Shown here in pieces: positions 3,638 through 61,312 of a stretch of 64,000 nt of DNA (the stretch's first letter is position 1; every line of letters begins with the position of its first letter). The DNA comes from Thermoanaerobaculia bacterium (lineage in GTDB: Bacteria; Acidobacteriota; Thermoanaerobaculia; Gp7-AA8). A program made the position numbers and the translations under genes. Where the stretch lies: the NCBI GenBank assembly GCA_036380735.1, contig DASVEE010000015.1, positions 48,954 to 112,953 on the forward strand. Direction: 5' to 3'. Under the pieces are notes generated by a model. It had not been told where the DNA came from, did no database searches, and worked only from the letters and a program-made list of their open reading frames with translations.

Positions 3638-3758
3638 GAGGACGAATAGGACAGATAGGACGAATAGGACCTATAGGACCGCCGCCCAAACCCCGCGCGG
3701 AACTGCCCATGGGACCCCGGTGTCCTATTGGTCCTATGGGTCCTATTCGTCCTATCGT
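3638..3758. repeat. Tandem-repeat-armed hairpin element (GAATAGGAC 9-mer arms)
   Basis: gaggacgaataggacagataggacgaataggacctataggac ... gtcctattggtcctatgggtcctattcgtcctatcgttcc. Confidence 0.8.
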
Positions 3759-3855: not shown

Positions 3856-4325
3856 ATGCTGAAGATCTCTAAACTCACGGATTACGGCCTGCTGGCTGCT
3901 GTCTACCTCGCCAAAAAAACCGGCGAAGTGGTGGCCGCTCGGGAGATTGCCGAGTTCTACCATCTGCCGGCCCCGGCGGTGACGAAGGTGCTGAAGACGC
4001 TCCATGCGGGCGGTCTCGTCCATTCGCACCGCGGCGTCGGCGGCGGTTATTCTTTTGATGGCGACGCCGAGCTCGTCACGCTCGGCCAGCTCATCGAAGT
4101 CCTCGAAGGACCGTGGGATCTCGTCGAGTGCGAGTCCGTCGACGATACCGGTCACGCGGTCTGCGCGATCCGGGTCGCCTGCCCCTCGCGGCGCTTTCTC
4201 TCCGGGATCAACCGCGCCATCAAGGGCGCCTTCGATCAGGTCACCCTCGGCGACCTCACGCGCGGCAGCATGCCGTTCACCGTCATCGACAAGCAGCGCC
4301 TCAACGGCGCGGAGTCCTCCATCTC

Positions 4326-4329
<4 letters not shown>
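3856..4329 (+). CDS. Rrf2-family transcriptional regulator (IscR/SufR-like), likely regulator of the suf operon
   Basis: [19 protein letters not shown]... Rrf2 helix-turn-helix; three Cys ([12 protein letters not shown]) as in Fe-S-binding Rrf2 regulators; immediately upstream of and overlapping sufB. Confidence 0.75.
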
Positions 4330-5768
<1,439 letters not shown>

Positions 5769-9437: not shown

Positions 9438-9515
9438 GGCTGTTTTCGGTTGTTGGTTTTCGGTTGTTGGTTAAAAGCCAAACCGAAAACCAACAACCGA
9501 AATCCGAAAACCAAC
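9438..9515. repeat. Tandem-repeat-armed hairpin element (GGTTTTC/GGTTGTT heptamer arms) between sufU and sufT
   Basis: ggctgttttcggttgttggttttcggttgttgg-ttaaaagcc-aaaccgaaaaccaacaaccgaaatccgaaaaccaac; ends 1 nt before the sufT ATG. Confidence 0.85.
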
Positions 9516-10065: not shown

Positions 10066-10068
10066 GTA

Positions 10069-10170
10069 GGGCTCAGGGGTCAGGGCTCAGGGCTCAGGGG
10101 CTGCGCTACACGGACGATGACCGCGCATAGCGGAGCCCCCTGAGCCCTGGGCCCTGAGCCCTGGGCCCCC
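10069..10170. repeat. Tandem-repeat-armed hairpin element (GGGCTCA heptamer arms), core GGCTGCGCTACACGG...CCGCGCATAGCGGAGCC
   Basis: gggctcaggggtcagggctcagggctcagggg ... cccctgagccctgggccctgagccctgggccc. Confidence 0.85.
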
Positions 10171-10188: not shown

Positions 10189-10752
10189 ATGCCTTTTTGC
10201 GCCAACTGCGGTAGCTCCACGCCCGAAGTGTCTTACGCGCTCTGCCCGAGCTGCGGCAATCCTACGAACGGGGCGCCGCGGCCGATGACGTACTCCCCGG
10301 CGGCGCCGCGGCCGGGCGTCAGCAAGTGGGTGTTCGTCATCGTCGGGCTCTTCCTGCTGATCCCGTTCATGGGGATCGTCGCGGCGATCGCCATCCCGAA
10401 CTTCATGACCGCCATGCAGCGCTCGAAGCAGAAGCGCACGATGGCCGATATCCGCGGCGTCGCGATGAAGGTCGAGGAGTACGGGCTGAAGCACAACCGT
10501 TTTCCGGCCGATCTCGAGAGCGCCGGAATCACCGCGCCGAACGACGCCTGGATGCGGCCGCTCTGGTATACCTGCGTGCCGCAGGTGGAGTGCACCGGCT
10601 ATGCAATCGTGAGCATGGGCGCCGATGGCGCGCTCGAGCATGAGGACATCGCCGAGTATGTGGACGCAGGCGGGACGACGAACTTCAATTCCGACATCGT
10701 CTTCATCGATGGTAAGTTCGTGCAGTATCCCAACACAGTCCAGGTGGAGTAG
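10189..10752 (+). CDS. Zinc-ribbon protein fused to a membrane-anchored pseudopilin-like (GspG-like) domain, no prepilin cleavage motif
   Basis: N-terminal CxxC...CxxC (CANCGS...CPSCGN); TM helix then AIAIPNFMTAMQRSKQ and C-terminal ...IVSMGADG, resembling the GspG/pilin fold; lacks the G/FTLIE leader. Confidence 0.55.
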   Translation: MPFCANCGSSTPEVSYALCPSCGNPTNGAPRPMTYSPAAPRPGVSKWVFVIVGLFLLIPFMGIVAAIAIPNFMTAMQRSKQKRTMADIRGVAMKVEEYGLKHNRFPADLESAGITAPNDAWMRPLWYTCVPQVECTGYAIVSMGADGALEHEDIAEYVDAGGTTNFNSDIVFIDGKFVQYPNTVQVE

Positions 10753-10764
10753 GGAAGGAGAGAT

Positions 10765-11271
10765 ATGTACTGTACGAATTGCGGAAATGATCGTCCCGAC
10801 AATCATCAGCCGTGTCCCAACTGCGGGGCCGTGCCTCAGCATGTGCCGCCGGCATCGCAGCAGCAGTTCGGCTCGTCGCCACAGGAGTTTGGCCAGGTAG
10901 GCAATCCCCAGGGGCAGTACACGCCGCCTCCTCCGCCGTCGATCGGTGGACCGGGGTACGGCGGGCCGGGTGGTCCCGGGATGCCGGTGGGCACGAAGGT
11001 GCCGAACTACCTCATCTTCTCGATCATCATGACGATCTGCTGCTGCCCCCTCGGCTCGCCGTTCGGGATCGTGTCGATCATCTTCGGCGCGTCGGTGAAC
11101 AGCAAGCTCGCCGCGGGTGACTACGCCGGGGCGCAGAAGGCGTCGGCCAACGCGCGCCTGTGGCTGATCATCGGTCTGGTGGTCGCGCTGGCCGGGATGA
11201 TCCTCTCGTTCTTCATGGGTGGTTTCGAGGACATCACGCGGTTGATGAATGAAGGCGCTGCGAATCGCTAG
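10765..11271 (+). CDS. Zinc-ribbon / proline-rich / DUF4190 (CD225-like) membrane protein
   Basis: CTNCGN...CPNCGA zinc ribbon, PPPPPS proline tract, then two-TM IFSIIMTICCCPLGSPFGIVSIIFG...LIIGLVVALAG region typical of DUF4190. Confidence 0.55.
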   Translation: MYCTNCGNDRPDNHQPCPNCGAVPQHVPPASQQQFGSSPQEFGQVGNPQGQYTPPPPPSIGGPGYGGPGGPGMPVGTKVPNYLIFSIIMTICCCPLGSPFGIVSIIFGASVNSKLAAGDYAGAQKASANARLWLIIGLVVALAGMILSFFMGGFEDITRLMNEGAANR

Positions 11272-11626
11272 CGTTGCGGCGGCCGCCCTCGTGGCGGCCG
11301 CCGGCGCGTGGGTGCTGTACCACAACGAACCGACGACCGCCGGGTTCTTCCCGGCGTGTCTATTCCGAAAGCTGACCGGCCTGGATTGCCCCGGCTGCGG
11401 CATGACGCGCGGCCTCTATCATCTGCTGCATGGGCACGTCTGGACGGCGTTCCGCTTCAACCCGCTGATGTTCGTGCTGCTGCCGCTCGTCCTGGGCGGC
11501 GGCACGATCGCCCTCCTGCGCGGTGAGCCACCCGCGCTGACGCGCAAGCCGTGGTTCGGCTGGACGGTGCTGTCGCTGATCTCGGTGTTCTGGGTGGTGC
11601 GGAACACGCCGTTGTGGCCGTTCTGA
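11249..11626 (+). CDS. DUF2752-family membrane protein
   Basis: LTGLDCPGCGMTRGLYHLLHG motif characteristic of DUF2752. Confidence 0.55.
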   Translation: MKALRIASVAAAALVAAAGAWVLYHNEPTTAGFFPACLFRKLTGLDCPGCGMTRGLYHLLHGHVWTAFRFNPLMFVLLPLVLGGGTIALLRGEPPALTRKPWFGWTVLSLISVFWVVRNTPLWPF

Positions 11627-11680
11627 CGGGCACCAGTGAAGAAAAAAGGGGACGGACCCGCGGCCCGTCCCCACATGCTG

Positions 11681-12034
11681 CTAGCGGTGGTCGTTGAAGA
11701 ACGTCCAGTCACCGACCGGGTGTCCCTGCTGAAGCTGCTGCGCCTGCAGGTAGCCGTCGATGGCTGCCACGATGCTGACCAGACCACTGACCGTGCCGAA
11801 GGTGCACAGGCCGAGGACCCACGCCACGATGGCGACGATGCCCTTGGTCTTCTGTCCCATGATCAGGTAGCCCACCCCGCCGAGTACCAGCAGGTTGAGC
11901 ACGAGCACGAGAATCGGATCCTTGGGTGGCTGCGTCGGGTAAACGAGACCACCACCGCTGGGCGGCGGCGGAACCGGCGAGCCGCCGGACGGCGGCGGCG
12001 GGGTGTACGAACCTCCGGGAGTTGTGTTCGACAT
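11681..12034 (-). CDS. Proline-rich small membrane protein (TM2/NINE-like)
   Basis: GGSYTPPPPSGGSPVPPPPSGGG N-terminus, then two TM helices (ILVLVLNLLVLGGVGYLIMG...IVAIVAWVLGL). Confidence 0.5.
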   Translation of the reverse strand: MSNTTPGGSYTPPPPSGGSPVPPPPSGGGLVYPTQPPKDPILVLVLNLLVLGGVGYLIMGQKTKGIVAIVAWVLGLCTFGTVSGLVSIVAAIDGYLQAQQLQQGHPVGDWTFFNDHR

Positions 12035-12043
12035 TGATCCTCC

Positions 12044-12484
12044 TTACATCTTGTCTGCGAAGTCGCTGATGACAGGCACTTTCAAACGCTGGCCCGACGT
12101 TGCTTTCACGATGCAGACCACGATGAGAGCGATGTAGGCGAGCCACAGCACGCAGTTCAGCATGGAGAGGCCGCAGCCGACGCCGCTCGGCAGGAAGCGC
12201 ATGAGGACCGTGATGAGGATGTACACCACGATGTAGGCGACGAAGATGGCCAGGCCGTTCTTCGCGTGCCACTGGACTTCGCGGTCTTCCTTCTTCGTGA
12301 GCAGCGGAATCAGGGCGAGCAGCCCCAGGTAAGAGAGGACGAGCATGATCGTGCGATCGCTGCCCGCGCCGCCCGGTGGCGGGTTGTAGCCTCCGCCCGT
12401 TGGCGGTGGCGGCGGAGTGTAGGAGCCGCCTCCCGGAGGCGGAGGTGTAGCAGGGGGAATCGTGGGCGGAGGAATCTCGCTCAT
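12044..12484 (-). CDS. Proline-rich small membrane protein (DUF4870-like)
   Basis: Start at MSEIPPPTIPPATPPPPGGGSYTPPPPPTGGGYNPPPGG, followed by three TM helices; paralogous N-terminal motif to the neighbouring gene. Confidence 0.5.
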   Translation of the reverse strand: MSEIPPPTIPPATPPPPGGGSYTPPPPPTGGGYNPPPGGAGSDRTIMLVLSYLGLLALIPLLTKKEDREVQWHAKNGLAIFVAYIVVYILITVLMRFLPSGVGCGLSMLNCVLWLAYIALIVVCIVKATSGQRLKVPVISDFADKM

Positions 12485-12522: not shown

Positions 12523-14184
12523 CTAGCCGGATTCGCCGAGGCGAGTGAGACGGCGCTCGGCGAAACGAATAGGTATCACGGTCAGAGCGGCCGACAGCGT
12601 GAGCGCAGTCACCAGCGGCACCGCCGTCGCGATCCAACCGCTGTCGTCCTGCACGGAGAAGACGCGCCAGAAGAAATAGCGCATGATCGGCCGTGCCATC
12701 AGCACCATCATCGTCCCCACATAGCCCATCGAAAGCGCCATGTAGGCGAAGCCGCCGAGCGACAGGCCGACCTGCAGCGGGTTCTCGGCGTTGAACTGCG
12801 GCGACAGGGCGCCCATGCCGATGCCGAGGCTGACCAGCGTGAAGGAGAGCAGCGAAGCGCCGAACAGCGTGAACGCCCACACGGCCGGCCCGGCGCCGAG
12901 CATCGAGTTGGCCACCGCGGTGAGCACCAGCGCGAGCAGCGTCAACGGCGTGGCGTAGACGAGCGCCTTCACGCGCAGAAACTGCCGGTACGACACCGGC
13001 GCCGTCTGCAGCAGCCAGAACGCCTTCCCTTCGGACGAAACGGACGGATACGCGAAGCGGAGGCAGATCGCGGCCACGACGAAGCCGGCCATGCCGAGGT
13101 TGGCGTACGCGACGATCGTGGCGCGCGCGTCGCCGCCGAGCGGCAGCATGCGGATGTTGTAGAGGTAGATGAACATCAGCGCCGCCATGAGGAAGACCTG
13201 CGACCACTGCGCGACGTCGCGCCCCAGCGTGCGCACTTCCTTCCCGATCATGGCGCGCATCGGGAGATCGGCGCGCGCGAAGAGATGGTCGAGCAGCCAC
13301 GTGGCACGCGTGGCGCCGATCGCGACGGGCGCCATGCTTTCGCGCGCGCGGACGAAGGCCGTGAAGTAGATCGCGCGGCCGATGAGGGCGAAGGCGGTGA
13401 AGAGCAGCAGCGCCACGAGCCAGATCTTCGGCGGGAACAGCGTCGCTCCGCTCTGATCCGTCATCACCTGCGCCAGCGCGGTGCTCGGATAGACGCTCAT
13501 CGCCGGCAGCTCGATCTGCCGCAGCACGCGCACCACGTCATCGGTCCCCACCTCGGAGAAGAAGCGCTCCGGCCGCGCCATCCGGAACGCGACGACGGCG
13601 AACGTCAGGATGAGGATGGCGATCGTGGCCACGATCTGATGCACGCGGCGCACAGGAAACCAGCGCACGAGCACGAGGATCACGAGCGAAGCCAGCGAAA
13701 CGGGGATGGTGAGCAGCAGGAGGAGGTTCCCGACCGTGGTCGGATAGAACGTCCACGGCCGGTCGTACTGCCGCGCGTACGCGACGAAGATCGGCAGCAG
13801 GAAGGCGAAGACGATGGTCGCGCTCTGCGCGAGCGTCTTGAGCCAGCGCGCGAGCAGCACGCGCAGCCGCGAGCGTGGCGCCGCGTGGTAGAGGTCGAGA
13901 TCGAGATCCGCAAAGTACGACCCGATGGCGACCGTCATCGACGAGGAGAACAGCACGATCGTCGCGACGAGAAACACCATCGACAGCAGGTTGCGCAGGA
14001 TGCCGATGGCGAAGAACGGCGTGGTGGCCTCGATCTCCGCCGTGGCCCGGAACAGCCGCGCAAAGAGCACGAAGTCACCGATGAGAAAGCCGGCGAACAG
14101 CGCGCTCACAATGAGCGTCTTGAGCAGCATCGCCGCGTTGAACGGGCGGAGCTTGGCGAAGGTGAGGCGGAGGGACCACATCAA
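12523..14184 (-). CDS. Polytopic membrane protein, ABC-2-type exporter permease-like (about 12 TM), no adjacent ATPase
   Basis: 553 aa, two repeated six-TM halves; family assignment from hydropathy pattern only. Confidence 0.4.
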   Translation of the reverse strand: MMWSLRLTFAKLRPFNAAMLLKTLIVSALFAGFLIGDFVLFARLFRATAEIEATTPFFAIGILRNLLSMVFLVATIVLFSSSMTVAIGSYFADLDLDLYHAAPRSRLRVLLARWLKTLAQSATIVFAFLLPIFVAYARQYDRPWTFYPTTVGNLLLLLTIPVSLASLVILVLVRWFPVRRVHQIVATIAILILTFAVVAFRMARPERFFSEVGTDDVVRVLRQIELPAMSVYPSTALAQVMTDQSGATLFPPKIWLVALLLFTAFALIGRAIYFTAFVRARESMAPVAIGATRATWLLDHLFARADLPMRAMIGKEVRTLGRDVAQWSQVFLMAALMFIYLYNIRMLPLGGDARATIVAYANLGMAGFVVAAICLRFAYPSVSSEGKAFWLLQTAPVSYRQFLRVKALVYATPLTLLALVLTAVANSMLGAGPAVWAFTLFGASLLSFTLVSLGIGMGALSPQFNAENPLQVGLSLGGFAYMALSMGYVGTMMVLMARPIMRYFFWRVFSVQDDSGWIATAVPLVTALTLSAALTVIPIRFAERRLTRLGESG

Positions 14185-14213
14185 AGCGACCGTGGTGTGG
14201 TGAGGTGGGACAT

Positions 14214-14308
14214 GGTTTTCGGTTTTCGGTTTTTGGTTTCTGGTGCTGTGCTACGCGGTGAGTGTCGCGTGGCGCAGCACCGAAAACCAAAAACCGAAAA
14301 CCGAAAAC
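14214..14308. repeat. Tandem-repeat-armed hairpin element (GGTTTTC heptamer arms), core GCTGTGCTACGCGG...CGCGTGGCGCAGCAC
   Basis: ggttttcggttttcggtttttggtttctggtg ... caccgaaaaccaaaaaccgaaaaccgaaaac. Confidence 0.85.
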
Positions 14309-15393: not shown

Positions 15394-15473
15394 GTCGTTG
15401 TCCGTTGTCCGTTGTCCGTTTTCCGTGGCGCCCGGTGAAACCACGGACAACGGAAAACGGACAACGGACAACG
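15394..15473. repeat. Tandem-repeat-armed hairpin element (GTCCGTT heptamer arms)
   Basis: gtcgttgtccgttgtccgttgtccgttttccgtgg-cgcccggtgaaa-ccacggacaacggaaaacggacaacggacaacg. Confidence 0.85.
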
Positions 15474-17920: not shown

Positions 17921-18013
17921 CCGGTTGTCCGTTGTCCGTGGTCCGTTGTCCGTGCTGGCGCTGCACGGACGCATAGCGCAGCACGGAAAACGGAAAACGG
18001 ACAACGGACAACG
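17921..18013. repeat. Tandem-repeat-armed hairpin element (GTCCGTT heptamer arms) between antitoxin and toxin genes
   Basis: ccggttgtccgttgtccgtggtccgttgtccgtgctg-gcgctgcacggacgcatagcgcag-cacggaaaacggaaaacggacaacggacaacg. Confidence 0.85.
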
Positions 18014-19223: not shown

Positions 19224-19330
19224 AAAGGACGGAAGGGACCGATGGACCGATCGGACAGACCGCGCAAGTCCGGGTGGGCGGGGTCCCATCCGTCCTATCG
19301 GTCATATACGTCCCATTCGTTCCATCGTCC
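19224..19330. repeat. Tandem-repeat-armed hairpin element (GGACCGAT / GTCCTAT-type arms)
   Basis: aaaggacggaagggaccgatggaccgatcggacag ... gggtcccatccgtcctatcggtcatatacgtcccattcgttccatcgtcc. Confidence 0.7.
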
Positions 19331-20872: not shown

Positions 20873-20914
20873 GGGGTCCTATAGGTCCTATCCGTCCATA
20901 CGTCCTATCGTCTC
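20873..20914. repeat. Single-arm GTCCTAT-type tandem array
   Basis: ggggtcctataggtcctatccgtccatacgtcctatcgtctcc; no clear complementary arm. Confidence 0.6.
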
Positions 20915-22950: not shown

Positions 22951-23096
22951 GAACTTCGAATGAAGAATTTCGAATGAAGAATTGAGGTGCGCCGCTTCGC
23001 GGCGGCGCTGTTCATAGCTGCGGTGGCGAAGCCACCGCACACCACAATTCGAAATTCGAACCTCTTCATTCGAACTTCGAAATTCGCCTCTCCTCG
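22951..23096. repeat. Tandem-repeat-armed hairpin element (GAATGAA/GAATTTC/GAACTTC heptamer arms) with long GC-rich core
   Basis: gaacttcgaatgaagaatttcgaatgaagaattg ... aattcgaaattcgaacctcttcattcgaacttcgaaattcg; the core is itself palindromic (cgcttcgcggcggcgctg ... cggtggcgaagccaccg). Confidence 0.85.
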
Positions 23097-24280: not shown

Positions 24281-24362
24281 TTATGGGACTAATAGGGCAC
24301 ACACTTCTGCCTCTGTCCTATACGTCCCATTCGTCCTATCGGTCCTATACGTCCTATCGTTC
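24281..24362. repeat. GTCCTAT-type tandem array with weak complementary left arm
   Basis: tatgggactaatagggcac ... tgtcctatacgtcccattcgtcctatcggtcctatacgtcctatcgttcc. Confidence 0.65.
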
Positions 24363-24371
24363 CCCGGCGAT

Positions 24372-32170: not shown

Positions 32171-32296
32171 GAACGATAGGACCTATAGGACGAATAGCAC
32201 CTATAGGACGGATAGGACCCCGCCACCCGAGATCCGCCTTTGACGTTGTCCTCTAGGTCCCATCCGTCCCATCCGTCCTATAGGTCCTATCGTCCC
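32171..32296. repeat. Tandem-repeat-armed hairpin element (ATAGGAC 9-mer arms) between bshA and the slt gene
   Basis: aacgataggacctataggacgaatagcacctataggacggataggac ... gtcctctaggtcccatccgtcccatccgtcctataggtcctatcgtcccc. Confidence 0.8.
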
Positions 32297-38455: not shown

Positions 38456-38545
38456 GAATTGAGAATTCCGAATTGAGAATTGAGAATTGGCTTCGCTGGC
38501 CGGTGCGCAGCTATCTCAATTCTCAATTCCCCAATTCTCAATTCC
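38456..38545. repeat. Tandem-repeat-armed hairpin element (GAATTGA heptamer arms), core GGCTTCGCTGGCCGGTGCGCAGC
   Basis: gaattgagaattccgaattgagaattgagaattg-gcttcgctggccggtgcgcagctatc-tcaattctcaattccccaattctcaattcc; the right arm overlaps the last codons of the VanX-like gene. Confidence 0.85.
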
Positions 38546-39297: not shown

Positions 39298-40485
39298 ATG
39301 GAACTCGACATCTTCTTTTCGATCTGCCAGACGGAAGTGAACGGCTATCTGCCGAGCGAGCGCGTCATGTTCGAGAACTTCTTCGAACAGGTCGACCTCG
39401 CCGACCGCCTCGGCTTCGGCACCGCGTGGGTGGCGGAGAGCCATCTCTCCACGGAAGTGCAGAAGACGAACCCCGGCGCGGTGATCCCTCACTTCGTCGG
39501 CGAGATCGGGCTCAACACCGACATTCTCCAACTCGCGCACAAGGTGTTCGCGCGGACGAAGCGGATCGGCATCGGCTCCGCGATCCTCAACATCCTCTGC
39601 AACGGCGGCCCGATCGCGCACGCGGAGCGGATCAAGACGTTCCTCTCGCTCCATGGGCTCGACCCGCACGAAACGCGCACGCTGACGATCGGCTTCGCGT
39701 CCGGCCGCTTTCCCTTCATCAACATCCCGTACGGCATCGTGCCGCGGAATGCGGTGGAGGAGGCGGCGTGGCCGGTGGTGAAGAACAAGATCTTCGAGGA
39801 GGCGACGGAGATTTTTCTCCGCCTGCTCAAAGGGGAGACGCTCAACTCCTCGATGATTGCCACGCGCACGATGAAGCGGGCCGACTTCCGCAAAGACGAG
39901 GACTGGCAGCGTGTGCAGGAAGCCTACGGGCAGCCGGCGGAGGAGATTCCGCTCGCCGCGCGCTGGCCGTTCCCCAACCTCAAGATCGTGCCCGAGGAGC
40001 CGCGGATGGAACTGCTGCGCCTCTCGATCGGCTCGCACGACCCGGCTACGCAGATCTTCGCCAACACGATCCTCCCGGTCGGCGTCTTCAACCTCTCGAT
40101 CACCCCTGGGGACGAGATCGAGAAGACGAACGAGCGGATGCAGACGCACTACCACCCCGACGGCGGCGGCTGGCAGCGCCGGCTGATGCCGCGGACGGTC
40201 CTGGTCTTCATCAACGACGACGATCCGGCGAAGGCGCACCAGGAGGCGCGCGACGCGCTGTCCAACTACTGGCGCGCGCTCGAAGGGACTCTGGACGAGG
40301 AGAAAGTGCGCCGCGCCACGAACAACGCGCTGGTCGGCAACGCCGAACAGATCGCCGCCCAGATGCAGGAGCGCTTCCATTCGGACGACCGCCTGATGCT
40401 GTGGTTCGACTTCAATAATCACGACTCGAAGAGAGTCATGAAAAACATGCACGATTTCATGACGAAGATACCGCATAACAAATAG
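39298..40485 (+). CDS. LLM-class (luciferase-like) flavin-dependent oxidoreductase
   Basis: Bacterial-luciferase TIM-barrel family features; start at MELDIFFSI. Confidence 0.6.
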   Translation: MELDIFFSICQTEVNGYLPSERVMFENFFEQVDLADRLGFGTAWVAESHLSTEVQKTNPGAVIPHFVGEIGLNTDILQLAHKVFARTKRIGIGSAILNILCNGGPIAHAERIKTFLSLHGLDPHETRTLTIGFASGRFPFINIPYGIVPRNAVEEAAWPVVKNKIFEEATEIFLRLLKGETLNSSMIATRTMKRADFRKDEDWQRVQEAYGQPAEEIPLAARWPFPNLKIVPEEPRMELLRLSIGSHDPATQIFANTILPVGVFNLSITPGDEIEKTNERMQTHYHPDGGGWQRRLMPRTVLVFINDDDPAKAHQEARDALSNYWRALEGTLDEEKVRRATNNALVGNAEQIAAQMQERFHSDDRLMLWFDFNNHDSKRVMKNMHDFMTKIPHNK

Positions 40486-40594
40486 GACGAATAGGACGAA
40501 TAGGACCAACAGGACCGATGGGACCGACAGCACCTACCGACAGCCGGGCGCAGCGTCCCGTTCGTCCTATTCGTCCTATAGGTCGTCCTATCGT
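40481..40594. repeat. Tandem-repeat-armed hairpin element (ATAGGAC 9-mer arms), core contains GGGCGCAGC
   Basis: aataggacgaataggacgaataggaccaacaggaccgatgggaccgacag ... gtcccgttcgtcctattcgtcctataggtcgtcctatcgttgcc. Confidence 0.75.
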
Positions 40595-41288: not shown

Positions 41289-41392
41289 GAACGCAGAACG
41301 CAGAACGCAGAATGCAGAACGCAGAACGCAGAATTGAGAACGCGGTTGCCCCTTTTCAACGTTCTGCGTTCTGCGTTCTGCATTCTGCATTC
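41289..41392. repeat. Tandem-repeat-armed hairpin element (GAACGCA heptamer arms)
   Basis: gaacgcagaacgcagaacgcagaatgcagaacgcagaacgcag-aattgagaacgcggttgccccttttcaac-gttctgcgttctgcgttctgcattctgcattc. Confidence 0.85.
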
Positions 41393-41461
41393 ACGGTTCT
41401 GCCTTCAAACCCCGGCGCAATAGGACAGAGGCGCCCCACCGTTTAGAATGGCCGCCTCGCC

Positions 41462-43964: not shown

Positions 43965-44044
43965 GAATTGAGAATTGGCGAATTGAGAATTGAGAATCGC
44001 GTAGCGCAACCCATTCTCAATTCTCAATTCCGAATTCTCAATTG
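43965..44044. repeat. Tandem-repeat-armed hairpin element (GAATTGA heptamer arms), core CGCGTAGCGCAACCC
   Basis: gaattgagaattggcgaattgagaattgagaat-cgcgtagcgcaaccc-attctcaattctcaattccgaattctcaattg; ends 9 nt before the downstream ATG (GAGGAAG Shine-Dalgarno partly inside the arm). Confidence 0.85.
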
Positions 44045-46317: not shown

Positions 46318-46414
46318 GAACGCAGAACGCAGAACGCAGAATGACGAATTGAGAAAGGGGACCGATCGTGGTGCGCAGCATTTCTTCGTTCGACGTTCTG
46401 CGTTCTGCGTTCTG
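46318..46414. repeat. Tandem-repeat-armed hairpin element (GAACGCA heptamer arms)
   Basis: gaacgcagaacgcagaacgcag-...ggtgcgcagc...-cgttctgcgttctgcgttctg. Confidence 0.85.
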
Positions 46415-56432: not shown

Positions 56433-56515
56433 TCGGACGAATCGGACCTACAAGACCAAAGCGCCGGTCCCATTCGTCCTATAGGTCCTATTCGTCCTAT
56501 TTGTCCTATCGGACC
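56431..56515. repeat. Tandem-repeat-armed hairpin element (GGACGAAT / GTCCTAT-type arms)
   Basis: gatcggacgaatcggacctacaagacc-aaagcgccg-gtcccattcgtcctataggtcctattcgtcctatttgtcctatcggaccc. Confidence 0.75.
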
Positions 56516-61274: not shown

Positions 61275-61312
61275 CTGTCCTATACGTCCCATACGTCCTA
61301 TAGGTCCTATTA
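61275..61312. repeat. Single-arm GTCCTAT-type tandem array
   Basis: tgtcctatacgtcccatacgtcctataggtcctatt. Confidence 0.6.

What the first reader, a model, noticed from the sequence alone, without database searches (positions are those of the whole stretch)
10189..12484. Cluster of five small membrane proteins with zinc-ribbon and poly-proline modules, one with an unprocessed pseudopilin-like domain
Five adjacent small genes sit in a divergent arrangement, and all encode membrane proteins with a shared modular grammar:
- (i) A cytoplasmic CxxC...CxxC zinc ribbon, a transmembrane helix, and a type II secretion pseudopilin-like (GspG-like) periplasmic domain (AIAIPNF...QRSKQ, ...SMGADG). It lacks the prepilin-peptidase leader (G/FTLIE), so it should stay anchored rather than be assembled into a pseudopilus.
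- (ii) A zinc ribbon, a PPPPP tract and a DUF4190 domain.
- (iii) A DUF2752 protein with a CPGCG motif.
- (iv) and (v), on the opposite strand, carry near-identical GGGSYTPPPP(S/T)GGG N-termini followed by TM2-like and DUF4870-like helices.
The gene pairs overlap, for example 11249 against 11271. Repeated co-occurrence of these domains of unknown function suggests one functional module, possibly an envelope-stress or septal complex; none of the domains has a characterised function. A large orphan ABC-2-like permease (12523-14184) follows.
Basis: partly seen in the sequence, partly recalled or inferred. Interest (0 to 1): 0.6.

Follow-up and report, generated by a model that had tools for sequence, protein, structure and literature searches.

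The report
Anchored pilin-like protein with CD225–DUF2752 operon
Five small membrane-protein genes in an uncultured soil acidobacterium are really two separate operons, one of which pairs a pilin-shaped protein that cannot be cut or built into a filament with two widely conserved membrane proteins whose function nobody has studied.

Summary
The five genes are real and conserved, in a Thermoanaerobaculia (Acidobacteriota) MAG. Three do not:
- g2 carries CD225/dispanin, not DUF4190.
- g4 is only TM2-like.
- The arrangement is convergent, not divergent.

They are not one module. g1-g2-g3 (+ strand) stay together in 48/48 genomes. In about 10 of these the trio lies away from g4/g5. In other genomes, ABC_tran_2-g5-g4 abuts the suf genes with no trio between. 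So there are two operons, juxtaposed in this lineage.

g1 has an invariant four-Cys zinc ribbon, a plain TM helix and a confident GspG-like pilin fold. It has no N_methyl motif, no Gly(-1) and no Glu5 (0/78 homologues). It derives from the clade's canonical prepilins, whose head domain is also fused to other membrane anchors. I infer it stays anchored.

The CD225→DUF2752 pair recurs in Verrucomicrobiota and Actinomycetota. DUF2752 usually sits beside small hairpin proteins and has no solved fold relative. g2, g4 and g5 share a conserved SYTPPPPP tail motif. Relatives of g4 carry zinc ribbons, GYF, kinase or TIR domains, so the "modular grammar" is real.

Function is untested. My best guess is static inner-membrane complexes, not a pseudopilus.

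The parts
10189..10752 (+). g1, 187 aa: cytoplasmic four-Cys zinc ribbon (res 1-30), TM/alpha1 helix (res 42-102), GspG-like pilin head (res ~103-187). No class III signal peptide.
   Evidence: Pfam T2SSG 29.5 bits against cutoff 21, with no N_methyl hit. C4, C7, C19 and C22 are invariant in 78 homologues. AF2 model has pLDDT 93. Top Foldseek hits are EpsG/GspG at prob 1.00. Position -1 is never Gly, position +5 is never Glu, and there are no acidic residues in the TM in 0/78.
10765..11271 (+). g2, 168 aa: zinc ribbon (res 2-22), Pro/Gly-rich linker with QYTPPPPP (res 51-58, nt 10915-10938), CD225/dispanin domain (res 80-147) with a CCC motif.
   Evidence: Pfam CD225 68.9 bits and Zn_Ribbon_1 26.7 bits. 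NCBIfam CCC_membrane, weak. Lies next to g1 in 48/48 loci. AAGGAG lies 7 nt before the ATG.
11249..11626 (+). g3, 125 aa: DUF2752 polytopic membrane protein. Its invariant C37-x9-C47-P-G-C50-G-x-x-R54 motif is at nt 11357-11410. Overlaps g2 by 23 nt.
   Evidence: Pfam DUF2752 77.6 bits. Invariant columns listed. AF2 pLDDT 88, all-helical. No solved fold relative. Follows g2 in 47/48 loci; the exception is a contig end.
11648..11672 (-). Intrinsic-terminator-like hairpin (11-bp stem, 9 GC pairs) followed by TTTTTTCTTC on the minus strand, 9 nt after the g4 stop. It lies between the two convergent operons.
   Evidence: sequence.
11681..12034 (-). g4, 117 aa: Pro-rich tail with SYTPPPP (nt 11990-12010) and LVYPTQPPKDP, then a two-helix membrane hairpin and a conserved C-tail (DGYLQAQQLQQGHPVGxWTFF). 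Belongs to a TM2-like family not covered by Pfam.
   Evidence: No Pfam family reaches threshold. 812 close homologues with 74% mean column identity. 329 cluster representatives at E<=1e-3. Relatives carry Zn-ribbon, GYF_2, Pkinase, TIR or FHA N-termini, and 14/68 hit TM2. GGAGG lies 5 nt before the ATG.
12044..12484 (-). g5, 146 aa: Pro-rich tail (MSEIPPPTIPPATPPPPGGGSYTPPPPP; motif at nt 12404-12424), then a three-helix DUF4870/HOTT (MamF/Tic20-like) domain.
   Evidence: Pfam DUF4870 32.1 bits against cutoff 25. Precomputed annotation MamF_MmsF. Tail is almost invariant in orthologues. Family context from PMC11628618.
12523..14184 (-). 553-aa polytopic protein of PF16949 (ABC_tran_2). It is the first gene of the minus-strand unit ABC_tran_2-g5-g4.
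   Evidence: Pfam 252 bits. Co-occurs with g5 and g4 in 31/31 loci, and in L095-L097 without the trio.

Best explanation
The interval holds the 3' halves of two convergent operons of inner-membrane proteins. Each operon is conserved independently.

**Operon A: g1-g2-g3**
- The core is an old two-gene cassette: a small CD225/dispanin hairpin protein with a cytoplasmic zinc ribbon, followed by the polytopic DUF2752 protein.
- Thermoanaerobaculia have added g1 to this cassette.
- g1 arose from the clade's own canonical prepilin. The leader, cleavage site and first half of helix alpha1 (including Glu5) were replaced by a cytoplasmic zinc ribbon and a plain TM helix.
- Inferred: g1 inserts N-in/C-out. 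It is not a substrate for prepilin peptidase and cannot be extracted into a filament. It displays a pilin-type head in the periplasm as a fixed binding module, held in a complex with g2 and g3 through TM and zinc-ribbon contacts.

**Operon B: ABC_tran_2-g5-g4**
- This is the end of an envelope-gene run (maf-mlaD-ddl-ABC_tran_2). It adds a HOTT/DUF4870 protein and a TM2-like hairpin protein.
- Inferred: the conserved SYTPPPPP tails of g4 and g5, shared with long-form g2, are cytoplasmic docking motifs for a proline-motif reader.

**Shown:** gene content, folds, absence of the processing motif, separability of the two units, the cross-phylum CD225-DUF2752 link, and motif conservation.

**Inferred:** topology, physical complexes, and any physiological role. 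The most likely role is membrane or envelope organisation, not secretion or piliation.
For: **Two separable units**
- The g1-g2-g3 trio is present in 48/48 loci with a full-length g1.
- About 10 of those loci lack g4, g5 and ABC_tran_2. One example is L082, where the trio lies between ABC exporter genes and a DUF3800 gene.
- L095 and L096 have mlaD-ddl-ABC_tran_2-DUF4870-g4 facing FeS_assembly_P-sufU-sufS directly, with no trio between.
- g4, g5 and ABC_tran_2 co-occur in 31/31/31 loci.
- Insertions fall only between the units, never inside them.
- Transcription is convergent, with a terminator between the units and a Shine-Dalgarno site or gene overlap inside each unit.

**g1**
- It matches T2SSG above the Pfam cutoff and has no N_methyl hit.
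- A canonical paralogue from a related genome hits both N_methyl and T2SSG.
- The family profile hits PilA (5e-10) and PulG (3e-9) among solved structures.
- The AF2 model has pLDDT 93. Its best fold matches are EpsG/GspG at prob 1.0 and TM 0.57-0.61.
- None of 78 homologues has Gly at -1, Glu at +5 or any acidic residue in the TM. Gly14 and Pro22 are invariant.
- The same head domain is fused to a ZnR plus multi-TM anchor, to another multi-TM anchor, and to a signal peptide plus a large periplasmic domain.

**CD225-DUF2752**
- GYF_2-CD225 x2 followed by DUF2752 in Luteolibacter and relatives.
- ZnR-CD225 x2 followed by DUF2752, without g1.
- CD225 followed by DUF2752 in Nonomuraea.
- DUF2752 lies beside TM2, MpPF26, DUF4190 or GYF_2-UPF0259 proteins in other genomes.

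**Tail motif and grammar**
- [YF]xPPP occurs in g5 in 30/34 loci, g4 in 20/36 and g2 in 15/39. It occurs in none of the other six conserved proteins scored (g1, g3, ABC_tran_2, Ddl, SufS, MlaD).
- Codons differ among the three copies in the window, so this is not a recent gene conversion.
- g4-type hairpins elsewhere follow Zn ribbons, GYF_2, FHA, kinase or TIR domains with no intervening TM. This places the hairpin's N-terminus in the cytoplasm.
Against: - Nothing here tests protein-protein contact, topology, metal binding, expression or phenotype.
- The positive-inside rule, applied by hand to g4 and g5, would put their charge-free tails outside. This conflicts with the homology-based inference (my reading).
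- The window's genome was not checked for canonical prepilins, a prepilin peptidase or a GYF_2 protein outside the 64 kb. None was found in the window.
- 3 of 11 independent DUF2752 contexts have no small hairpin neighbour, so the partnership is frequent but not obligatory.
- In many genomes the long-form g2, g4 and g5 all carry the motif and lie side by side. Some cross-talk between the two operons therefore remains possible.
Confidence: 0.6

Rival explanations
1. All five small proteins, perhaps with ABC_tran_2, form one envelope-stress or septal complex.
For: - The five genes are adjacent in 31 of 41 genomes with enough flanking sequence.
- g2, g4 and g5 share a conserved SYTPPPPP motif. 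It is absent from g2 in the relocated trios (0/8).
- Elsewhere DUF2752 sits beside TM2-like and DUF4190-like proteins, the class g4 belongs to.
- g4 and g5 lie in a run with mlaD and ddl.
Against: - The trio and the g5-g4 pair each occur without the other.
- They are transcribed convergently, with a terminator between them.
- The conserved block also contains suf and ddl genes, so synteny alone carries little weight.
- The link between the motif and adjacency follows phylogeny, so the genomes are not independent observations.
Confidence: 0.15
2. g1 is a working pseudopilin or pilin-system component. It might dock on a type IV pilus or T2SS platform as a non-extractable base subunit or stopper, or report the membrane pilin pool to the cytoplasm through its zinc ribbon.
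For: - The second half of alpha1 (GILAAIAIPNLLTAMQRSKQKRTMAD) is almost identical to that of canonical prepilins in related genomes.
- Gly14 and Pro22 are invariant.
- The head fold is GspG-like.
- Public annotations call family members GspG.
Against: - No processing motif and no Glu5 in 78 homologues.
- The score against the GspG equivalog TIGR01710 is 38 bits, against a cutoff of 88.85.
- No secretion or pilus genes are listed next to the trio in the annotated loci. The invariant partners are CD225 and DUF2752.
- The same head is fused to unrelated anchors, including one without the hydrophobic alpha1N. This points to a stand-alone binding domain.
Confidence: 0.15
3. The trio is an anti-phage or membrane-fusion-blocking defence, by analogy with IFITM, the animal CD225 proteins.
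For: - g2 is a bona fide CD225 protein with the CCC motif.
- Bacterial dispanins are proposed ancestors of IFITMs, and mycobacterial ones restrict influenza virus in human cells (PMC3282796; PMC4488726, abstract).
Against: - No hit to any PADLOC model.
- The genes sit in a stable housekeeping neighbourhood and are kept in every genome examined, unlike patchy defence islands.
Confidence: 0.05

Closest known systems
Major pseudopilin GspG/PulG/EpsG of the type II secretion system, and type IVa pilins such as Myxococcus PilA
   Same: Pfam T2SSG head domain. Long alpha1 helix with Gly14, Pro22 and the AIAIPN motif. Alpha-beta pilin fold. Best structural matches are 4lw9, 3gn9 and 3fu1.
   Different: No leader, no Gly(-1), no Glu5 and no N_methyl motif. 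A 30-residue cytoplasmic zinc ribbon takes their place. g1 is encoded with CD225 and DUF2752 rather than with secretion or pilus genes. Its score is far below the GspG equivalog cutoff.
CD225/dispanin family (IFITM, PRRT2; bacterial dispanins)
   Same: g2 matches PF04505 well above threshold. It has the conserved Cys cluster in the first hydrophobic segment and a Pro-rich N-terminal region, as in PRRT2 and IFITM3 (PMC3282796).
   Different: g2 has an N-terminal zinc ribbon and is translationally coupled to a DUF2752 gene. No bacterial function is known, and bacteria are not known to S-palmitoylate the Cys cluster (PMC3282796).
DUF2752 (PF10825)
   Same: g3 is a typical member, with the invariant C-x9-CPGCG-x-x-R motif.
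   Different: Nothing to compare it with. No paper in the searchable library mentions the family and no solved structure resembles the model.
HOTT/DUF4870 family (MamF, MmsF; distant Tic20 relatives)
   Same: g5 matches PF09685 above threshold. It has the helix, charged loop and two further helices described for the family (PMC11628618).
   Different: g5 has a 45-residue Pro-rich tail. It is not from a magnetotactic organism, and the non-magnetosome members are uncharacterised (PMC11628618).
TM2 domain proteins (PF05154) and DUF6677
   Same: The g4 hairpin has the same layout (G-x-G-x-x-x-x-G-Q-x-x-K-G ... D-[AG]-Y). 14 of 68 distant relatives hit TM2 and 7 hit DUF6677.
   Different: g4 itself hits neither at E<0.1. 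hhalign against a Streptomyces TM2 protein gives only 41% probability. The conserved PPKDP and GxPVGEWEFF ends are specific to the g4 family.

Membership tests
T2SS major pseudopilin GspG / type IV pilin class | Pilin/pseudopilin globular domain (Pfam T2SSG) and pilin fold | tested here: met
   29.5 bits against cutoff 21. Foldseek gives EpsG/GspG at prob 1.00 and TMt 0.57-0.61.
T2SS major pseudopilin GspG / type IV pilin class | Class III signal peptide: short basic leader, Gly(-1), Phe/Met(+1), Glu(+5) (Pfam N_methyl) | tested here: not met
   No N_methyl hit at E<=0.1. Among 78 homologues, position -1 is I/V/A/L, position +5 is G/V/L/A, and none has an acidic residue in the TM. A canonical paralogue hits N_methyl at 43 bits.
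T2SS major pseudopilin GspG / type IV pilin class | Equivalog-level match to GspG (NCBIfam TIGR01710) | tested here: not met
   38.1 bits against cutoff 88.85; only residues 49-108 matched.
T2SS major pseudopilin GspG / type IV pilin class | Encoded with secretion or pilus machinery genes (GspD/E/F, PilB/C/D) | tested here: inconclusive
   No such genes appear in the annotated neighbourhoods L081 and L082. No other prepilin motif is present in the 64-kb window. The rest of the genome was not examined.
CD225/dispanin (PF04505), for g2 | HMM match above the gathering score, with a two-hydrophobic-segment layout and a Cys cluster | tested here: met
   68.9 bits against cutoff 27.1, residues 80-147. 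ICCCPLG is present.
   Not listed for g2 at E<=0.1. For g4 it scores 16.7 bits against a cutoff of 35.
DUF2752 (PF10825), for g3 | HMM match above the gathering score; CPGCG motif | tested here: met
   77.6 bits against cutoff 27. C37, C47, G49, C50, G51 and R54 are invariant in 47 sequences.
DUF4870/HOTT (PF09685), for g5 | HMM match above the gathering score | tested here: met
   32.1 bits against cutoff 25, residues 55-142.
TM2 domain (PF05154), for g4 | HMM match above the gathering score | tested here: not met
   No hit for the window protein. 2/37 close homologues hit at E 0.007. hhalign probability is 41%. 14/68 distant relatives hit at best 3e-5. This is a superfamily-level resemblance only.
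PF16949 ABC_tran_2, for 12523-14184 | Full-length HMM match | tested here: met
   252 bits, profile positions 5-539 of 542.
Known anti-phage defence systems (PADLOC) | Any model match | tested here: not met
   0 families for all six proteins at E<=0.01.

The most novel reading that the evidence does not exclude
Small hairpin membrane modules (CD225, the TM2-like g4 family, HOTT/DUF4870, DUF4190, MpPF26) form a widespread bacterial membrane-scaffold network that has not been studied.
- Interchangeable cytoplasmic handles tie the modules together. Zinc ribbons, GYF_2, FHA, kinase and TIR domains would act as readers or effectors. Pro-rich tails such as SYTPPPPP would be their ligands.
- DUF2752 would be a dedicated partner of these hairpins. 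With its invariant CxxC-type motif it could act on them as a thiol-redox, metal-dependent or Cys-modifying factor, for example on the CD225 Cys cluster that is palmitoylated in animals.
- In Thermoanaerobaculia a decommissioned pilin head would have been recruited as the periplasmic arm of this complex.
Probability: 0.12. Interest if true: 0.75.

Novelty: new variant of a known kind. Interest (0 to 1): 0.5.

Why it matters
- **Annotation.** Public pipelines label well over a thousand proteins of the g1 type as GspG pseudopilin. They lack the features needed for processing and assembly, so counts of secretion or pilus components in Acidobacteriota are inflated.
- **Pilin evolution.** A pilin head has been detached from filament biology and reused as a fixed ectodomain on several different anchors. 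This is an unusual evolutionary route for this fold.
- **Entry points to unknown families.** The CD225→DUF2752 pairing across phyla gives a concrete, testable way into two families with no known bacterial function. One of them is the ancestor family of the animal antiviral IFITMs.
- **Testable interaction hypothesis.** GYF_2 domains and Pro-rich tails recur on the same hairpin families. This suggests a specific interaction that could be tested.

Tried and rejected
- **PADLOC scan** of all six proteins: nothing.
- **Literature:** no paper mentions DUF2752. No paper found describes a zinc-ribbon-pilin fusion.
- **tblastn of ABC_tran_2 against plasmids:** no match.
- **Pfam placement of g4:** below threshold for every family. 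Pairwise hhalign to a TM2 protein was weak.
- **Regex search of the window** for other prepilins, GYF_2-like domains or further g4-like hairpins: none.
- **Neighbourhoods of the canonical prepilin paralogues (L071, L077):** I tried to see whether they sit in T2SS or pilus loci. ORF lists alone did not settle it, and I did not spend Pfam calls on it.
- **Recent gene conversion as the source of the shared tails:** rejected, because the codons differ.
- **SPase I cleavage at AIA|IP releasing the g1 head:** considered and judged unlikely. The same sequence sits inside alpha1 of all canonical pilins, the model shows one continuous helix 42-102, and a 43-residue folded n-region is atypical for a signal peptide. 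This was not tested.
Full report
**What is there**

The window is about 65% G+C. Its genes match MAGs of the class Thermoanaerobaculia (Acidobacteriota). g4 and g3 are identical to NCBI proteins of a "MAG TPA: Thermoanaerobaculia bacterium" on a 216,896-bp contig.

The interval holds five genes:
- g1, 10189-10752 (+), 187 aa
- g2, 10765-11271 (+), 168 aa
- g3, 11249-11626 (+), 125 aa
- g4, 11681-12034 (-), 117 aa
- g5, 12044-12484 (-), 146 aa

A 553-aa gene follows at 12523-14184 (-).

Pfam gives these assignments:
- g1: T2SSG, 29.5 bits against a cutoff of 21, plus weak zinc-ribbon hits.
- g2: Zn_Ribbon_1 and CD225 (68.9 bits).
- g3: DUF2752 (77.6 bits).
- g4: nothing above threshold (DUF4190 16.7 bits against a cutoff of 35).
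- g5: DUF4870 (32.1 bits against a cutoff of 25).
- The 553-aa protein: PF16949 ABC_tran_2 (252 bits).

There are three corrections:
- g2 carries CD225/dispanin, not DUF4190.
- g4 is not a TM2 or DUF4190 member by any threshold.
- The two gene groups are convergent, not divergent.

A hairpin with an 11-bp stem followed by TTTTTTCTTC lies on the minus strand at 11672-11648, just after the g4 stop. Inside each group the genes are tightly linked:
- AAGGAG lies before g2.
- g2 and g3 overlap by 23 nt.
- GAAGGAG lies before g5.
- GGAGG lies 5 nt before g4.

**Is it one module?**

I scanned one genome per species for relatives of g1 (80 loci). I then searched the window's eleven neighbouring proteins against all ORFs of those loci.

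- Forty-eight loci encode a full-length g1 with the zinc ribbon.
- All 48 have a CD225 gene next to g1, often two. 47 have DUF2752 after it; the exception is a contig end.
- Of the 41 loci with at least 4.5 kb downstream, 31 have g4, g5 and ABC_tran_2. Those three always occur together.
- These 31 loci share a longer syntenic block: sufS-sufU-FeS_assembly_P / g1-g2-g3 / g4-g5-ABC_tran_2-ddl-mlaD. Because the block includes housekeeping genes, its conservation says little about function.
- Ten loci keep only the trio. An annotated example is L082, where the trio lies between two ABC exporter genes and a DUF3800 gene.
- The converse also exists. In L095 and L096 the run maf-mlaD-ddl-ABC_tran_2-DUF4870-g4 faces FeS_assembly_P-sufU-sufS directly, with no trio between.
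- Extra DNA in other loci falls between g3 and g4, or before g1. It never falls inside a unit.

The five genes are therefore two separable units: g1-g2-g3 and ABC_tran_2-g5-g4. They happen to abut in this lineage.

**g1**

The family is large, with 1,471 hits at E<=1e-3. Several sources name its members GspG or PulG.

- 118 of the 120 listed homologues start with a CxxC-x(11-12)-CxxC motif. The two exceptions are a copy of g1 itself called from a later start and a 304-aa protein. None of the 120 has a G-F-T-L-I-E type site.
- In a 78-sequence alignment C4, C7, C19 and C22 are invariant. So are G62 and P70, which correspond to Gly14 and Pro22 of pilins.
- The column equivalent to Gly(-1) holds I, V, A or L. 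The column equivalent to Glu5 holds G, V, L or A. No sequence has an acidic residue in the TM segment.
- The family profile matches solved pilins and pseudopilins: M. xanthus PilA at 5e-10, and PulG at 3e-9 over profile positions 50-161.
- The AlphaFold model is confident (pLDDT 93). It shows a zinc-ribbon-like knuckle, one helix spanning residues 42-102, and a beta-sheet head.
- The best PDB matches are the major pseudopilins EpsG/GspG (4lw9, 3gn9, 3fu1; prob 1.00, TM 0.57-0.61), followed by type IV pilins.
- Against the GspG equivalog model, g1 reaches 38 bits of the 88.85 required.

g1 therefore has the pilin fold. It fails the test that defines pilins as assembly substrates.

**Where g1 came from**

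The other loci from the scan show the same head domain in several architectures. The domain is recognisable by AAIAIPNLLTAMQRSKQKRTMADxR ... DIVFSNGxFVQYPEG.
- (a) Canonical prepilins (MKKRQKGFTLIELLIVVAIIGILAAIAIPN...), often in tandem. These hit both N_methyl (43 bits) and T2SSG.
- (b) The g1 form.
- (c) Zinc ribbon plus about four TM helices plus the head.
- (d) Another multi-TM anchor plus the head.
- (e) Signal peptide plus a roughly 300-aa periplasmic domain plus the head, with no hydrophobic alpha1N at all.

The simplest reading is that a clade-specific pilin head has been reused repeatedly as a stand-alone extracytoplasmic module. g1 would be the version on a zinc-ribbon anchor. This is inference from architectures, not a tested phylogeny.

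**g2 and g3**

DUF2752 has only three invariant cysteines (C37, C47, C50) plus G49, G51, R54 and G62.
- No paper in the library mentions the family.

I looked at eleven independent DUF2752 contexts outside the g1 clade. Eight have small hairpin membrane proteins next to it:
- GYF_2-CD225 twice in Luteolibacter and relatives.
- Zn_Ribbon_1-CD225 twice, with priA upstream and no g1.
- A Gly/Pro/Gln-rich DUF4190-like protein plus a Gly/Pro/Gln-rich CD225 protein in Nonomuraea (my reading of the ORFs).
- TM2 on both sides in Streptomyces.
- MpPF26 twice in a flavobacterium.
- DUF4190 twice in a planctomycete-type contig.
- GYF_2-UPF0259.
- A small Cys-containing membrane protein in Paenibacillus, with the family not verified.

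Three contexts have none.

The CD225→DUF2752 pair is thus older and wider than g1, and g1 is a lineage-specific addition. Bacterial dispanins were noted in 2012, including the conserved Cys cluster that cannot be palmitoylated in bacteria (PMC3282796). I found no functional work on them.

**g4, g5 and the shared tails**

- g5 belongs to the DUF4870 family. That family was renamed HOTT and linked to MamF and Tic20. Apart from the magnetosome proteins it is described as completely uncharacterised (PMC11628618).
- g4 is the most conserved of the five, with 74% mean column identity against 54% for g1 and 32% for g3.
- A search of 1.84 billion cluster representatives with g4's 81-residue membrane domain found 329 relatives at E<=1e-3.
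- In a sample of 68 relatives the domain usually lies at the C-terminus. N-terminal regions include zinc ribbons (23), GYF_2 (6), protein kinase (2) and TIR (2). One further protein has an FHA-like N-terminus by my reading of its sequence. 14 hit TM2 and 7 hit DUF6677.
- In the fusions I inspected, no extra hydrophobic segment separates the soluble domain from the hairpin. I infer that the hairpin's N-terminus, and hence g4's tail, faces the cytoplasm.
- A hand application of the positive-inside rule would suggest the opposite for g4 and g5. Topology is therefore unresolved.
- The tails share a motif: SYTPPPP in g4, SYTPPPPP in g5 and QYTPPPPP in g2.
- Across orthologues, [YF]xPPP occurs in g5 in 30/34 loci, g4 in 20/36 and g2 in 15/39. 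It occurs in none of the other six conserved proteins scored, and in none of the 8 relocated trios.
- The codons differ among the three copies in the window, so selection acts on the peptide.

GYF domains are known to bind proline-rich peptides (established knowledge). Finding GYF_2 and Pro-rich tails in the same position on the same hairpin families suggests a reader-ligand relationship. This is a lead, not a result.

**How it most likely works**

*Shown:*
- Two operons.
- g1 has a pilin fold without a processing site.
- The CD225-DUF2752 link spans phyla.
- The tail motif is conserved.

*Inferred:*
- g1 inserts with the zinc ribbon in the cytoplasm and the head in the periplasm. It has three basic residues before the TM, and a nearly invariant Cys pair (C129/C135) in the head.
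- It is neither cleaved nor polymerised.
- It acts as a fixed periplasmic binding arm of a complex with the CD225 hairpin and DUF2752.
- g4 and g5 work with ABC_tran_2 in an envelope-related operon.
- The SYTPPPPP tails recruit a common cytoplasmic partner.

I put about 0.6 on this overall picture. I put much less, about 0.2-0.3, on any particular physiological role.

*Rivals:*
- The single-module view, 0.15.
- A pilus- or T2SS-associated anchor or sensor role for g1, 0.15.
- An IFITM-like defence role, 0.05. There are no PADLOC hits and the genes sit in a stable core-genome context.

**Novelty and score**

All the domains belong to known families, so nothing here is categorically new. Three things appear to be undescribed in the literature I could search:
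- A large family of non-processable pilin-fold proteins on a zinc-ribbon anchor, currently annotated as GspG.
- The reuse of that pilin head on several different anchors.
- The cross-phylum CD225-DUF2752 cassette.

I rate this a new variant of a known kind, with interest 0.5.

Noticed in passing
window 9442-9512, 10068-10168, 14213-14308, 15396-15473, 17924-18013, 22951-23086, 38456-38545, 41289-41406, 43965-44043, 46318-46414; nonamer type at 775-884, 3639-3755, 19283-19330, 20876-20912, 24315-24364, 32176-32296, 40481-40525, 56466-56509, 61277-61310: At more than ten sites, apparently intergenic, there is a long hairpin in which each arm is 4-6 tandem copies of a 7-nt or 9-nt unit. A further set of nonamer repeat arrays was not checked for hairpin form. 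The architecture is the same everywhere but the unit sequence differs from site to site (AGGGCTC, GGTTTTC, CGTTGTC, GAACGCA, GAATTGA; GTCCTATCC/AGGACGAAT). One hairpin lies directly upstream of g1 and one lies between ddl and ABC_tran_2. Their nature is unexplained; they could be a terminator, a REP-like element or a slippage product.
   Followed up: partly
L049, L065, L070 (ZnR + multi-TM + pilin head); L045, L050, L060, L066 (multi-TM + head); L055, L073, L075, L078 (signal peptide + ~300-aa domain + head): In related Acidobacteriota the same pilin-type head domain is fused to at least three other kinds of N-terminal region. One of these lacks the hydrophobic alpha1N altogether. The N-terminal domains themselves have no Pfam family.
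   Followed up: partly
L002, L004, L008, L010 and about 15 other loci, just downstream of g1: Many genomes have two tandem CD225 genes. One is a short form (zinc ribbon joined directly to CD225). The other is a long form with the SYTPPPPP linker. The window and its closest relative L001 have only the long form. Relocated trios have only the short form.
   Followed up: partly
L081 2423-2890 (same DNA as window g1): An automatic gene call for g1 in a public assembly starts at Met33, giving 155 aa and cutting off the conserved zinc ribbon. Some database entries for this family are therefore N-terminally truncated.
   Followed up: yes
L095 1678-7336; L096 1671-7345: In genomes without the trio at this site, maf, mlaD, ddl, ABC_tran_2, DUF4870 and g4 are packed with overlapping or near-touching ends. 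This suggests one long envelope-related operon. In the window, a 127-nt spacer with a repeat hairpin separates ddl from ABC_tran_2.
   Followed up: no
L089-L091 (DUF2752 at 4001-4522): One DUF2752 lineage (173 aa) sits after two thioredoxin/redoxin-type genes and a TPR protein, and before an alpha/beta hydrolase. There is no small hairpin neighbour. Given the invariant CPGC motif, the redoxin neighbours may be worth a look.
   Followed up: no
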